Origin: a virus
DNA length: 64,000 nt
IMG/VR virus record: IMGVR_UViG_3300028388_001285
Coordinates: 1 to 64,000 of that record
Strand: one strand, 5' to 3'
Shown here: positions 3,863-15,217 of the stretch, in pieces
How positions within the stretch are numbered: the stretch's first letter is position 1
How the letters are laid out: each line of letters begins with the position of its first letter
The notes under the pieces: model-generated
The model's database searches: none
Told to the model about the DNA's origin: nothing
Seen by the model: only the letters and a program-made list of their open reading frames with translations
Made by a program: the position numbers and the translations under genes

Positions 3863-4363
3863 GTGGTGAATGTTAGGAGAGAGGAAAAAGAAGAAAACTC
3901 AACTTGGTGAATATTGGCAATGGTAATAATGGGACTTGTGTTGGCAGCACGAGGCTGGACTTCTAACCCCGAATATGATAGCTCAATAGCCATAAATTCA
4001 AAGAGACTTGCGAAGATTGAAAAGAAGGAGGAGGAGACGAAGAACTCAGAACAGTATGTACTCTTGGCCGTACGCGACGGAAGCTATCCTTGCTACAATT
4101 GTCCCACCGGTACAATTAATCTCATCGAAGGAGATGTCTTTAAGTATGGGTGAACAACTAAAGGTAAGGCTAGGTACTCTTGATCAACCCTCGCGCAAGC
4201 GGGACTGGTTTATCTCCCGCAGCACAGAGGTACGGCTCAGGAATGTATGGTCCTAGAAATGAAGCGGATAATATTTTATCCTGCGGAGATTAGGTCTAAA
4301 GCAGTATTCGAACGGAATAATATAGTGCTACTGAGACCGCCAGGAAATAAACGAGACATATAA
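3863..4363 (+). CDS. membrane-anchored URI-fold (GIY-YIG-like) polymorphic-toxin-type nuclease domain protein (3 in-frame TGA)
   Basis: Read-through of TGA 3908, 4151 and 4181 gives an N-terminal TM helix plus QYVLLAVRDGSYP...GDVFKYG.TT...RYS...E...RPPGNKRD, resembling Bacteroidota Rhs toxin C-termini; start codon uncertain (3821-3866). Confidence 0.6.
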
Positions 4364-4632
4364 TGAGGAAGCTGAAGATGGTAACCCACTATGAGCTGAA
4401 TGAAATTATGGATAAGCTCATAGGAACTACAGTAGAATTCCACATAACCGGCACAGATTTTTTTACGTCAGGTATGGTAGATGTATCTACAAATGGAAAT
4501 GTGGTATGAGTACATAATACTGACAGGTTTAGATACTACTATGATTTAGAGAGTTTATTAACACATGATACTTGGTATCAAGTAAAAGAAGAAGAGGATG
4601 ATTTTAGCGATAACAGAAATAGCGCTGCGTAA
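4363..4632 (+). CDS. hypothetical protein (1 in-frame TGA)
   Basis: 89-aa ORF under TGA read-through; TAATG-coupled start. Confidence 0.55.
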
Positions 4633-10730: not shown

Positions 10731-10823
10731 GTGCGGTTAGACCGGGAAGGGCTCCGGGGCTGTCTTCAAAACAGTGTGGTCGGTCCAAACGACTTCAGAA
10801 GGGTTCGAATCCTTTGCCGCATG
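10731..10823 (+). tRNA. opal-decoding tRNA, anticodon UCA, long variable arm
   Basis: acceptor GTGCGGT/GCCGCAT, D stem CCGG/CCGG, anticodon arm GCTGT-CTTCAAA-ACAGT (TCA at 10766-10768), variable stem GGTCG/CGACT, T arm AAGGG-TTCGAAT-CCTTT, discriminator G followed by CTA. Confidence 0.9.
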
Positions 10824-10913
10824 CTATGAATTACAAAGAAGTAGGCACAATAGCAGAGCATGAAACAATGAAGATAGTTTTGAAGAATACATGGACGAGA
10901 TAATAAATTAATT

Positions 10914-11896: not shown

Positions 11897-12222
11897 GGGC
11901 GTGACGTGGCATCGACATGTGCGAGGAAGGATAAGCGAGAGATACACAACAACAAAAGGCAATTATTACATTGACCAGTTGAAAGAAGCTGTAGCAGCTT
12001 TGGAACAACTCTGGAATGAGCGCACCAGACCAAGAAAAGTGCTCACTGTGGTACAACATTACTACGCATAGAAGGTTTGTAGTTTCCTAATGAGGACTTC
12101 ACGTCCACAATAAAAGAACTACTGGTGGAGTTTGGCTGACGAAGGTTGGCCCCAATTTTCATCTCGTTTGAGTTTATTTGGAACGTATATGGACCTGGGT
12201 TCGACACCCAGCACGTCCACTA
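11897..12222 (+). ncRNA. ssrA: tmRNA (transfer-messenger RNA)
   Basis: 5' GGGCGTG pairs with 3' CACGTCC, giving G3.U70 and A73 (Ala identity); GG..TCGAC 5' motif; P2 ATGTGCG/CGTATAT; GGAC followed by T arm CTGGG-TTCGACA-CCCAG; internal tag ORF 11958-12071. Confidence 0.88.
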
Positions 12223-12761: not shown

Positions 12762-14438
12762 ATGAAGAAAGATATAACTTTCCATAACAAAGCCCGCACT
12801 GGGCTGATCAACGGAATCAAAGTTATTGCCAATGCTGTAGGCGCAACGTTAGGCCCGAAAGGGAGGAATGTAGTTATCGAGAAATCATACGGTGCTCCAC
12901 ATGTTACTAAAGACGGAGTTACAGTTGCTGGGAGTGTTGTACTTGAAGATGCTGTAGAAAATTTAGGAGCTCAAATCCTTAAGCAAGCGGCAGCTAAAAC
13001 TGTCAAAGAGGCAGGAGATGGTACTACTACTTCTATAGTGTTGGCGCAGAAATTGGTAGAAGAGGCACATAGACAGATATCTAATGGTGCAAACCCAATT
13101 GATATCAAGCGTGGTATGGAGCAAGCCAGCAAAGAGGTAGTAAAGAAACTGCAAGAATACTCTGTACCAGTGAACGACGATTTCGATAAAATTGAACAGA
13201 TAGCAACTATATCTGCTAATAATGATGTAGAGATAGGACAATTAATCAGACAAGCTTTTGAAGCTGTAGGCAAAGACGGCATCGTAGCGGTAGAAGAATC
13301 CAAGTCAGTTGACACCTTCGTGAATAAATCAGAGGGTATGCAGTTTGATCGTGGATTTATCTCCCCATATTTTGCTAATAATGCTAAAGGTACCTGCGAA
13401 TTTGAAGACCCGTATGTACTCATATACGACAAGAAGATTCGTGGTACTGGTGATATTGTACCTATACTGGAAAAGGTGGCGCAGAAACAGAAGCCCATTC
13501 TTATCATAGCCGAGGAAGTAGAAGCACAAGCTTTAACTTTGTTGGTTCTGAATAAGATGCAAAGGGGCGCACAATTTTGTGCTGTCAAAGCTCCAGCATT
13601 TGGAGACCGGAGACGTAAGGTTTTACAGGATATCGCGACCGTTACTGGTGGCACACTGATAAGTGAAACTGTTGGAAGGACTCTGGAAGATGTAACATTA
13701 GCAGATCTTGGTAGAGCTGAAAAGATTCAAATTACTAAAGATGACACGACGATTATTAGAGGCGCGGGCTCGCCAGAAGAAATTGCTCACAGAATTGAGC
13801 AAGTCAAAAACGAGATTAATACTACAGAGTCCGAGTATGAACTCAGTAAAACTAAAGAACGTCTCGCCAAGTTGGTGGGAGGTGTTGCCGTATTACACAT
13901 TGGAGCAGCCACTGAGGTCGAGTTAACTGAGAAAAAAGACCGTGTCGAAGACGCATTAAAGGCTACTCAAGCCGCACTTGAAGAAGGTATCCTTCCCGGA
14001 GCCGGTTCATCTTATATAGCGGCTGCACAAGATTATCAACCACCTAGCATTCTGAATAACAGAGATCAGTTAGCTGGAGTACGATGTTTGGAAGCAGCGT
14101 TAGAGCAACCACTACGCATCATATCCGAGAATGCAGGAAGACCTGCTGACTTGGTCCTTTCGAGAGTTAAAGAAGCTATGAGCTTAATTACTCACGATGA
14201 ATTGGAGAGTGGTGACGGTTCATATGCGGTTAAATTCAATCAAGGGTTTGACGCAAATAACGGCAGTATTGTAGATTTACGGGAACATGGGATTATAGAT
14301 CCAACTAAGGTAGTTAGAGTAGCATTGGAAAACGCAGTTAGTGTAGCCGGTATGTTGTTAATGACAGAGGTTACGGTGACTGAAAAAGAAGAACTTAATT
14401 TAGACATCCCTGGAGGAATGCCTCCACCAATGCAATAA
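12762..14438 (+). CDS. groEL: chaperonin GroEL (Cpn60)
   Basis: [52 protein letters not shown] motifs. Confidence 0.98.
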
Positions 14439-14440
14439 AA

Positions 14441-15217
14441 ATGAGATTTGCTAATTTTACACAAAAAGTTTTAACTGCCCTATGTATCATGGGATTCTTT
14501 TTGCACTTTGCAGCTCACGCACAGACTAACAATGATACGGTATATGTATACCCATTCTTGTTCCAAACTGAGAACGCTGCTGAGATTCAAATATTCCTAG
14601 ATGGACCACAGGCGTATCAAGATTCGATCACGTCAATTCAGTTTCCCGTAACATTCTTCGGGGGAGTACCATCAGGTGTTGAGTACCATAATGGACTGGC
14701 TACGAAGCTGATGAATACTAATATAAAGGATAATCAGGTATTATTTTCCTGGTTAACACCTACACTTGAGATGTTTAAGACATCCCCACTTGCACCAATT
14801 TTAACTATAAAGTTTGATAAGCCAGGAGTGGATTCTATACATTTCGGTGACTCAGATTGGATGCGAGTAGAGTTTAGTACCATCACTGCTAGAGATACTG
14901 TACCACCGATTGTCACAATCGAAGCATTACCTTGGAAACTTGGTTACGTACAAGAAGGTGCTGGATTAGAAGATTATGCACCTGCGATAGTAAATACTAT
15001 CAGTGCCGGAGATAGTAAGATGATTAAGGTATATCCAAACCCGACTACCGGGACTGTGAGATTTGAAGCCATTACACCACCTAACCGTATGAGGATCTAT
15101 GATTTAGCGGGTAAGGTTATGTACGATGGAGAGTTTAAACATGAGGTGTATTTCAGCCAGACTGGCATATTCTTTGTACAACTGGATGATATCATTATAA
15201 AAGTAATTAGACAATAA
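14441..15217 (+). CDS. secreted protein with cohesin-like beta domain and type IX secretion (T9SS) type A C-terminal sorting domain
   Basis: signal peptide ...AAHA|Q; C-terminus IKVYPNPTTG...IYDLAGK...GIFFVQL...KVIRQ. Confidence 0.85.
   Translation: MRFANFTQKVLTALCIMGFFLHFAAHAQTNNDTVYVYPFLFQTENAAEIQIFLDGPQAYQDSITSIQFPVTFFGGVPSGVEYHNGLATKLMNTNIKDNQVLFSWLTPTLEMFKTSPLAPILTIKFDKPGVDSIHFGDSDWMRVEFSTITARDTVPPIVTIEALPWKLGYVQEGAGLEDYAPAIVNTISAGDSKMIKVYPNPTTGTVRFEAITPPNRMRIYDLAGKVMYDGEFKHEVYFSQTGIFFVQLDDIIIKVIRQ

What the first reader, a model, noticed from the sequence alone, without database searches (positions are those of the whole stretch)
11897..12222. Phage tmRNA with a very long atypical tag and apparently no PK1
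The tRNA-like domain is intact (G3.U70, A73). The likely resume codon GGC (11958) follows an A-rich stretch almost immediately after the P2 helix, leaving no room for pseudoknot 1. The frame reads GNYYIDQLKEAVAALEQLWNERTRPRKVLTVVQHYYA* (37 aa), whereas bacterial tags are typically about 10 aa and end in Ala-Ala. The tag is amphipathic-helical and lacks the terminal AA degron, so it could free stalled ribosomes (for example at UGA) while changing the fate of tagged proteins. The resume position is inferred.
Basis: partly seen in the sequence, partly recalled or inferred. Interest (0 to 1): 0.75.

Follow-up and report, generated by a model that had tools for sequence, protein, structure and literature searches.

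The report
Phage tmRNA, long tag, no PK1
A crAss-like phage of flavobacteria carries its own ribosome-rescue RNA (tmRNA) that lacks the usual first pseudoknot and would add a 38-residue tail instead of the host's 10. It is one of an overlooked group of flavobacterial-phage tmRNAs that all encode tails of about 30 to 42 residues.

Summary
Window 11897-12222 (+) is a tmRNA gene: ARAGORN calls it, and Rfam RF00023 gives 45.7 bits (cut-off 47), E 2e-16.

- **tRNA-like domain:** complete, with G3.U70, A73 and a T-arm.
- **PK1:** helix 2 is followed by only 14-21 unpaired A/C-rich bases before GGC at 11958, so there is no PK1.
- **Resume codon:** The context AAAA|GGC AAU matches the host-phylum context UAAAC|GGC GAG AAU; 62 of 66 Bacteroidota tmRNAs encode GENNYALAA.
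- **Relatives:** related crAss-like phages keep open frames of 19-42 codons from the same point, with in-frame indels. Eight of the ten tags end in Tyr-Ala, His-Ala, Tyr-Val or Leu-Val.

The long tag is not peculiar to this phage. Eight of nine independent flavobacterial-phage lineages have tags of 30-42 residues (shuffle P about 5e-7). These include cultured phages phi14:2, Calle and the FpV4 group; only Calle's tmRNA is annotated.

Full loss of PK1 was seen only here and in one weaker relative. Most relatives keep a small hairpin.

The phage record holds no smpB, so host factors are needed. In this clade the gene tends to go with UGA-to-Trp recoding and a tRNA(UCA).

What happens to tagged proteins is unknown. 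The scan had already noted a similar pseudoknot-free, long-tag tmRNA on other DNA (e1-5998673).

The parts
11897..11903 (+). Acceptor stem, 5' strand (GGGCGUG), with G3 of the G3.U70 alanine identity pair
   Evidence: compensatory changes in relatives (GGGCAUG/CAUGUCC, GGGUCCG/CGGAUCC and others)
11904..11915 (+). D-loop analogue of the tRNA-like domain (..UGGCAUCGA..)
   Evidence: aligned to the RF00023 consensus UGGaUUCGAC
11916..11943 (+). Helix 2, 5' strand: positions 20-27, 33-40 and possibly 43-47
   Evidence: MFE fold. Partners are 12184-12191, 12172-12179 and possibly 12161-12165.
11944..11957 (+). Unpaired A/C-rich linker in the place of PK1; A at -4 from the resume codon
   Evidence: The 21 nt from 11937 fold to 0 kcal/mol. 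Linker is 13-21 nt here and in L250, against 29-48 nt with a hairpin or pseudoknot in relatives.
11958..11960 (+). Resume codon GGC (Gly)
   Evidence: Same context as host Bacteroidota tmRNAs (UAAAC|GGC GAG AAU) and as relatives L089 and L250
11958..12068 (+). Tag reading frame, 37 codons (P0121); starts GNYYI, ends QHYYA
   Evidence: amphipathic stretch at residues 4-21 (hydrophobic moment 0.45, the highest of 13 tags)
12069..12071 (+). Tag stop codon UAG
   Evidence: none of the 13 phage tags compared ends in UGA
12072..12160 (+). 3' structured domain: two stem-loop or pseudoknot-like modules (predicted only)
   Evidence: Fold at -26.2 kcal/mol, z -1.8. A possible H-type knot joins GUAGUU/AACUAC with UCCAC/GUGGA. 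No covariation test was possible.
12161..12191 (+). Helix 2, 3' strand
12195..12211 (+). T-arm (CUGGG-UUCGACA-CCCAG)
12212..12222 (+). Acceptor stem 3' strand (CACGUCC), discriminator A, then CUA. CCA is not encoded.
10731..10824 (+). Neighbouring tRNA with anticodon UCA (reads UGA)
   Evidence: A tRNA(UCA) lies next to the tmRNA in most tmRNA-bearing relatives.
12762..14438 (+). Neighbouring phage GroEL (Cpn60)
   Evidence: Pfam PF00118, 4.7e-74; 52-54% identical to Flavobacteriales GroEL

Best explanation
Window 11897-12222 is a one-piece tmRNA gene of an uncultured crAss-like phage whose host is most likely a member of Flavobacteriales.

**Shown from sequence**
- A complete alanine-type tRNA-like domain and a long helix 2.
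- No pseudoknot 1: a 14-21 nt unpaired linker leads straight to GGC at 11958.
- The resume context is the one used by host Bacteroidota tmRNAs.
- A 37-codon frame that ends at UAG.
- Membership of a wider set of flavobacterial-phage tmRNAs with tags of 30-42 residues.

**Inferred**
- The RNA is made early and is stable.
- Host AlaRS charges it, and host SmpB and EF-Tu deliver it to ribosomes stuck at the 3' end of broken or read-through mRNAs.
- Translation resumes at GGC, adds Ala plus 37 residues ending in YYA, and terminates, which frees the ribosome.

The phage gains extra rescue capacity at a time when host mRNA decay, and the phage's own UGA-suppressor tRNA, should increase non-stop translation.

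The long tag probably replaces the host's ALAA-type ClpXP signal with another signal. It might work like the long Lon-directed tags of Mollicutes, or it might be a non-degradation tag. This last step is speculative.
For: **Identity.** ARAGORN and RF00023 both call a tmRNA, E 2e-16. Acceptor stem and T-arm covary across ten relatives, with G3.U70 and A73 invariant.

**Frame.**
- Host-phylum tmRNAs resume at UAAAC|GGC GAG AAU; 62 of 66 encode GENNYALAA.
- The window has CAAAA|GGC AAU, L089 has CAAAC|GGC AAA, and L250 has UAAAC|GGC AAU.
- A at -4 matches the key A86 of E. coli (PMC2481249).
- Relatives keep open frames from this point, with a 2-codon in-frame indel, shared motifs (DNS.., ST..V.PQE) and YA-type ends.
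- Rfam aligns its resume codon to GGA in phi14:2.

**Tag length.** Eight of nine independent lineages have 30-42 codons; shuffle P is about 5e-7.

**PK1.** The linker is unstructured. Engineered E. coli tmRNA without PK1, or with a hairpin in its place, still tags (PMC3968760, citing Tanner 2006 and Wower 2009).

**Not a host fragment.** Only about 30 nt of the T-arm resemble host tmRNAs.

**Expression of a homologue.** The phi14:2 tmRNA (4031-4502, + strand) lies in the gap where abundant, stable, rightward 'long non-coding RNAs' were reported.

**Link to recoding.** TGA encodes conserved Trp residues in TerL. tmRNA goes with recoding or tRNA(UCA) in the clade: 10 of 12 loci against 5 of 20, P 0.003; 0.03 after dereplication.
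Against: - The Rfam score is just under the gathering cut-off.
- This tag shares only its first two residues, roughly its length and its YA end with the relatives' tags. It is basic and amphipathic where theirs are acidic.
- No close relative exists to test selection on this particular frame.
- Its open frame alone is within chance (P 0.145).
- Substitutions in relatives' tags show little third-position bias, so peptide-level constraint is weak outside the ends.
- There is no expression data for this phage.
- No smpB was found in the record, which is 81% complete.
- Cultured phages with such tmRNAs (phi14:2, FpV4 group, Calle) are not known to recode, so the link to UGA is not obligatory.
Confidence: 0.75

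Rival explanations
1. Only the tRNA-like half matters. The RNA acts as a decoy that soaks up host SmpB or AlaRS and blocks host trans-translation, or it is a decaying gene, and the 37-codon frame is not translated.
For: PK1 is missing and the Rfam score is sub-threshold. The tag is an orphan with no family motif. The open frame is within chance for this RNA alone. Phage genes holding only the tRNA-like domain exist, and one (DS6A) is discussed as an SmpB titrator in PMC4131195.
Against: The resume context with A at -4 is kept. Tag length (37) and the YA end fit the family. Helix 2 and a structured 3' domain are kept although a decoy would not need them; true domain-only genes are 68-96 nt. PK1 is dispensable in E. 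coli.
Confidence: 0.13
2. Tagging resumes elsewhere. One option is ARAGORN's GCA at 12022 (22 residues, double stop). The other is the +1 frame GCA at 11959, which gives 7 residues to UGA, or 11 residues to the UAG in the loop of the hairpin AAGCUG-UAG-CAGCUU if the phage tRNA(UCA) reads that UGA.
For: ARAGORN output. GCA is the commonest resume codon in bacteria. The +1 frame would give a tag of normal length with its stop in a hairpin loop.
Against: Neither frame has a counterpart in relatives or hosts. The base at -4 from ARAGORN's codon is G, not A. The host-type context places GGC in frame. Neither peptide ends like any known or related tag.
Confidence: 0.08
3. The stretch is a captured piece of host ssrA, such as an attachment-site remnant, with no role in the phage.
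For: Phages often integrate at ssrA and can carry fragments of it (PMC9004378).
Against: The gene is full length. Only about 31 nt, at 84% identity, resemble Bacteroidota tmRNAs. Its position upstream of TerL is shared by related phages with diverged but covarying copies. The phage is of the lytic crAss-like type.
Confidence: 0.02

Closest known systems
Standard one-piece tmRNA of Bacteroidota (Rfam RF00023; tag GENNYALAA)
   Same: tRNA-like domain, helix 2, Gly (GGC) resume codon in an AAAC|GGC context with A at -4, a tag starting G-(E)-N, and a structured 3' domain.
   Different: 326 nt against about 396. Resume at position 62 against about 96, because PK1 is absent. Tag of 37 residues against 9. 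End YYA against LAA. CCA is not encoded.
tmRNAs of cultured flavobacterial phages: Cellulophaga phage Calle (annotated), phi14:2 and the Flavobacterium psychrophilum FpV4/Fpv20 group (both unannotated)
   Same: Phage-borne, host-like resume context (UUUAAAC|GGA AAC), tags of 30, 38 and 35 residues starting GN.
   Different: Those keep a conserved PK1-like element and are 360-472 nt long. Their tags share an EANM motif that is absent here. One ends in Ala-Ala (Fpv20).
Mollicutes ssrA (Mesoplasma florum tag ending NYAFA, degraded by Lon)
   Same: A tag much longer than the E. coli one, ending in aromatic-Ala rather than LAA (PMC9382460).
   Different: It is a cellular tmRNA. Its switch of protease is shown by experiment. 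Here the protease, if any, is unknown.
tmRNAs without a full PK1: engineered E. coli variants (hairpin or deletion) and Oenococcus oeni, which lacks helix 4
   Same: They show that PK1 is not strictly required for tagging (PMC3968760; PMC1168896).
   Different: Here the loss is natural and complete, with no hairpin left, and it is in a virus.
Other phage tmRNAs (mycobacteriophage Bxz1 group, Bacillus phage G, two-piece tmRNAs of marine myophages such as Melnitz)
   Same: Virus-encoded ssrA that relies on host SmpB. About 2.3% of phage genomes carry one (PMC4131195; PMC9004378).
   Different: Different lineages and architectures.

Membership tests
tmRNA (RF00023) | tRNA-like domain: 7-bp acceptor stem with G3.U70, discriminator A73, T-arm with a GUUCRA-type loop, no anticodon arm | tested here: met
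   covariation in acceptor stem and T-arm across ten relatives
tmRNA (RF00023) | Long helix 2 joining the tRNA-like domain to the rest of the RNA | tested here: met
   (8 + 8 bp, possibly 5 more)
tmRNA (RF00023) | Internal reading frame: resume codon after an unpaired stretch with A at -4, ending in a stop codon | tested here: met
   context matches host tmRNAs
tmRNA (RF00023) | Pseudoknot 1 between helix 2 and the resume codon (near-universal, not essential) | tested here: not met
   14-21 unpaired nt only
tmRNA (RF00023) | Pseudoknots downstream of the tag (PK2-PK4) | tested here: inconclusive
   Structured 94-nt domain with one plausible H-type knot. No covariation data.
tmRNA (RF00023) | Score at or above Rfam's gathering threshold | tested here: not met
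   45.7 against 47 bits, but E 2e-16 and a full-length match. ARAGORN is positive.
tmRNA (RF00023) | Short tag (about 8-12 residues) ending in a hydrophobic Ala-Ala degron | tested here: not met
   37 residues ending in YYA
tmRNA (RF00023) | Alanylation, SmpB binding and trans-translation activity | not testable with these tools
   No smpB in the phage record; host factors are assumed
Flavobacterial-phage long-tag tmRNAs (group defined here) | Phage-borne; Gly or Asp resume codon followed by Asn; tag of 30-42 residues | tested here: met
Flavobacterial-phage long-tag tmRNAs (group defined here) | Acidic tag with shared internal motifs (ST..V.PQE or EANM) | tested here: not met
   Net charge +1 and no shared internal motif

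The most novel reading that the evidence does not exclude
Phages of Flavobacteriia, crAss-like ones included, maintain their own lineage of tmRNAs whose tag has been lengthened under selection to about 30-42 residues, with new C-terminal ends. Products of ribosome rescue in infected cells would then be routed differently from host-tagged proteins. In UGA-recoding phages the gene is co-inherited with the suppressor tRNA, to clear ribosomes that read through host stop codons. The window's copy would also show that a natural one-piece tmRNA can work with no PK1 at all.
Probability: 0.35. Interest if true: 0.75.

Novelty: new variant of a known kind. Interest (0 to 1): 0.6.

Why it matters
Phage tmRNAs are usually listed in genome papers without comment. 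Three points here go beyond that.

- **Tag length.** A whole group of flavobacterial-phage tmRNAs keeps tags three to four times the host's length. This suggests viruses alter what happens after ribosome rescue, not only how often rescue occurs.
- **PK1.** PK1 is the most conserved pseudoknot of tmRNA, so a natural copy without it is a useful test case for its role.
- **A bench system.** The group includes cultured phages. The unannotated tmRNA of the model crAss-like phage phi14:2 lies where abundant, stable RNAs of unknown function were reported, so the question can be tested at the bench.

The association with UGA recoding also offers a testable idea of how code-switching phages cope with read-through.

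Tried and rejected
- **Phage database by DNA:** no nucleotide match for the tmRNA or for an 11-kb flank.
- **Neighbouring 149-aa ORF:** no relative in IMG/VR.
- **GroEL neighbours:** the closest is only 55-57% identical.
- **56-aa ORF over the tag:** no homologue among 5.8 billion proteins.
- **Protein atlas:** no meaningful look-alike for the tag.
- **Sequencing runs:** none was listed and no RNA holder was listed.
- **Metagenome scan:** a pattern for PK1-less relatives (ATCGAC, gap, CAACAAAMGGCAAWTAT) gave three chance hits and no tmRNA.
- **ARAGORN's tag (12022):** rejected, for the reasons given under rival explanations.
- **The +1 GCA frame:** rejected, for the reasons given under rival explanations.
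- **MAFFT alignment of window, L089 and L250:** too divergent to use for the middle of the RNA.
- **Neighbouring ORFs:** PHROGs and Pfam gave no function for them.
- **Promoter and terminator scans:** at chance level.
- **Codon-position bias in relatives' tags:** weak. It was not used as evidence for peptide-level selection; only frame, length and end conservation were used.

Full report
**What is there.** ARAGORN finds a tmRNA at 11897-12220 on the + strand. Rfam RF00023 matches 11897-12222 over the whole model at 45.7 bits, just under the 47-bit gathering score, with E 2.1e-16. The window is the first 64 kb of an 82-kb IMG/VR virus record.

All long ORFs are on the + strand. The tmRNA sits in a 420-nt gap between small ORFs. 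It lies 1.07 kb downstream of a tRNA with anticodon UCA (10731-10824) and 0.54 kb upstream of a phage GroEL (12762-14438; Pfam Cpn60, 4.7e-74).

**What phage and host.** The large terminase is closest to Cellulophaga phage phi14:2 (Crassvirales) among cultured phages, at 33% identity. GroEL is 52-54% identical to Flavobacteriales GroELs. This is therefore a crAss-like phage, probably of a flavobacterial host.

Three in-frame TGA codons in the TerL N-terminus align with Trp residues that are conserved in relatives. The phage therefore reads some UGA as Trp, as earlier notes of the scan said.

**Anatomy.**
- Positions 1-7 pair with 316-322 (GGGCGUG/CACGUCC), with G3.U70.
- The discriminator is A, and the gene continues CUA, so CCA is not encoded.
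- The T-arm is CUGGG-UUCGACA-CCCAG.
- Helix 2 is formed by 20-27/288-295 and 33-40/276-283, with a possible third segment GAGAU/AUCUC at 43-47/265-269.
- From there to GGC at position 62 (11958) lie 14-21 A/C-rich bases that fold to 0 kcal/mol.
- The frame from GGC runs 37 codons to UAG (P0121).
- The remaining 94 nt form two stem-loop or knot-like modules. I could not test these by covariation.

**Which frame.** ARAGORN proposes a different tag that starts at 12022.

ARAGORN called that tag in 62 of the 66 tmRNAs it called in the 80 loci I read. Their median length is 396 nt, the resume position is about 96, and the context is UUUUAAAC|GGC GAG AAU AAC.

The window has CAAAA|GGC AAU UAU. Its closest tmRNA relative, L089 (TerL 59% identical), has CAAAC|GGC AAA UAU. 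Relative L250 has UUUAAAC|GGC AAU ACU, which is 17 nt identical to host tmRNAs.

The A at -4 corresponds to A86, the main frame determinant in E. coli. A C at -5 is tolerated there (PMC2481249). The base at -4 from ARAGORN's start is G, and that frame has no counterpart elsewhere. The +1 frame (GCA) is also unsupported by homology.

**Relatives.** I built a TerL alignment (A1) and used it to collect 80 loci of the clade from IMG/VR. RF00023 matched in 13 of the 76 records searched; G003 (L089) had been matched earlier.

Across these, the acceptor stem and T-arm covary freely while G3.U70 and A73 stay fixed. From the homologous resume point the frames are 19, 30, 32, 32, 32, 32, 33, 33 and 42 codons. 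There is a two-codon in-frame indel, shared starts (DNS, DNN, GN), a mid motif (ST..V.PQE) and ends such as VYA, QYA, AYA and VHA.

The window's tag shares only the GN start, the length and the YYA end. It is the only clearly amphipathic one (moment 0.45 over residues 4-21). It has a net charge of +1, where most of the others are -3 to -7.

**Cultured phages.** RF00023 also matches three groups of cultured phages.
- phi14:2 at 4031-4502 (46 bits; ARAGORN positive). It is not annotated as a tmRNA; GenBank KC821624.1 lists hypothetical proteins there, which RefSeq has removed.
- Fpv20 at 84536-84950 (58 bits), with identical copies in 29 FpV4-group phages. It is unannotated wherever a record carries annotation.
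- Cellulophaga phage Calle, where the tmRNA is annotated.

Read from the host-like context UUUAAAC|GGA AAC, their tags are 38, 35 and 30 residues. Rfam's own alignment puts its resume codon on that GGA in phi14:2.

Taking one representative per independent lineage, eight of nine tags have 30-42 codons. Shuffling gives a mean chance of 0.13 per lineage and about 5e-7 for eight of nine. For the window alone the chance is 0.145. The long tag is therefore a selected trait of the group, and the window is assigned to it by homology.

**PK1.** Host tmRNAs have about 75 nt between the start of helix 2 and the resume codon. In the clade, L068 and L089 can still form an H-type knot. L241, L246, L247, L248 and L249 fold into a 4-5 bp hairpin with a GUC/GAC core about 17-20 nt before the resume codon, and L242 has the same motif by eye.

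The window and L250 have only 13-21 unpaired nt. L250 is a weak match (22.6 bits) with an odd T-loop.

PK1 is present in nearly all known tmRNAs, with Oenococcus oeni and a partial plastid sequence as the noted exceptions (PMC1168896). A hairpin can replace it, and E. coli tmRNA lacking it still tags (PMC3968760). Its absence is therefore unusual but compatible with function.

**How it most likely works.** The record holds no smpB (the record is 81% complete). The RNA must therefore use host AlaRS, SmpB and EF-Tu. It would enter ribosomes stalled at mRNA 3' ends, resume at GGC and add Ala plus 37 residues.

It is not a recent host fragment, because only about 31 nt of the T-arm resemble Bacteroidota tmRNAs.

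There are no expression data for this phage. For phi14:2, a published time course reports two intergenic stretches between g004 and g006. They are transcribed rightward, more abundant than most genes, present early and not declining later, and their function is described as unknown (bioRxiv 10.1101/2020.03.07.982082). The phi14:2 tmRNA lies on that strand inside that gap (g004 ends at 2904 and g006 starts at 4602).

**Link to recoding.** In the clade, a tRNA(UCA) lies within about 1.5 kb of the tmRNA in most tmRNA-bearing contigs. I restricted the test to loci with at least 7 kb upstream of TerL. Recoding or a tRNA(UCA) is seen in 10 of 12 loci with tmRNA, against 5 of 20 without (Fisher P 0.003). 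After dereplication it is 6 of 8 against 5 of 20 (P 0.03).

This test is not corrected for phylogeny. L089, L250 and the cultured phages show that tmRNA also occurs without evident recoding. A plausible reading is that read-through of host stop codons by the suppressor raises the load of non-stop ribosomes. None of the 13 tags ends in UGA.

**What remains open.** It is unknown whether the tag is a degron, and for which protease. The nearest precedent is the long Mollicutes tag ending NYAFA, which switched to Lon (PMC9382460). The aromatic-Ala ends here resemble it, but that is only a lead.

The main rival is that only the tRNA-like half is used, as an SmpB decoy. Phage genes of 68-96 nt holding only that domain, with the same acceptor stem, exist in IMG/VR, and one is known from mycobacteriophage DS6A (PMC4131195). 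The retained helix 2, resume context, family-typical tag length and structured 3' domain argue against this rival, but do not exclude it.

**Novelty.** Phage tmRNAs are known; about 2.3% of phage genomes have one (PMC9004378). Papers on flavobacterial phages mention them only in passing. In the papers I could search, I found no description of the long-tag group, of the phi14:2 tmRNA, or of a natural one-piece tmRNA with no PK1. The scan itself had noted a similar pseudoknot-free, long acidic-tag tmRNA in another crAss-like phage (e1-5998673). I did not test that one.

Noticed in passing
L380:2532-3003 (NC_021806.1 4031-4502, + strand): The model crAss-like phage phi14:2 has an unannotated tmRNA (46 bits, ARAGORN positive, predicted 38-residue tag). 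It lies in the g004-g006 gap, where a published RNA-seq study reported very abundant, stable 'long non-coding RNAs' of unknown function.
   Followed up: partly
L381:1537-1951 (- strand; NC_031912.1 84536-84950): Fpv20 and 28 other Flavobacterium psychrophilum phage records share an identical 415-nt tmRNA. It is unannotated wherever a record carries annotation. Predicted tag is 35 residues, ending in Ala-Ala.
   Followed up: partly
L141, L143-L150 (IMG/VR contigs; places): Genes of 68-96 nt that hold only a tmRNA-type tRNA-like domain (acceptor GGGCRUG/CAYGUCC or GGACGUG/CACGUCC, the 3.70 pair G.U or A-U, tail ACUA), with a short hairpin in place of everything else. ARAGORN calls no tRNA there. 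They resemble the domain-only gene of mycobacteriophage DS6A.
   Followed up: partly
L089:1501-1959 (- strand): The closest relative's tmRNA is 459 nt and carries a second, internal T-arm-like hairpin (CUGCAGGUUCGAAUCCUGC) about 90 nt before its real T-arm. Its tag is the short outlier, at 19 residues and rich in Ser and Tyr.
   Followed up: no
L241:632-824 (- strand): A group I intron match (RF00028, 50 bits, at threshold) about 0.7 kb downstream of that phage's tmRNA.
   Followed up: no
L006:5576-5967 and L028:3852-4268: Unrelated GroEL-bearing phages carry two-piece (permuted) tmRNAs with ALAA-ending tags of 18 and 10 residues, directly next to groEL. The GroEL-tmRNA adjacency therefore recurs across phage groups.
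   Followed up: no
window 16842, 16860, 16878: Three in-frame TGA codons in the TerL N-terminus align with Trp residues conserved in relatives (RPW, LEW, YNW). UGA-to-Trp recoding in this phage is therefore real.
   Followed up: yes
window 14441-15217: The ORF after groEL has a weak match to the type IX secretion C-terminal sorting domain (PF18962, E 6e-4, below cut-off). This fits a Bacteroidota host.
   Followed up: no
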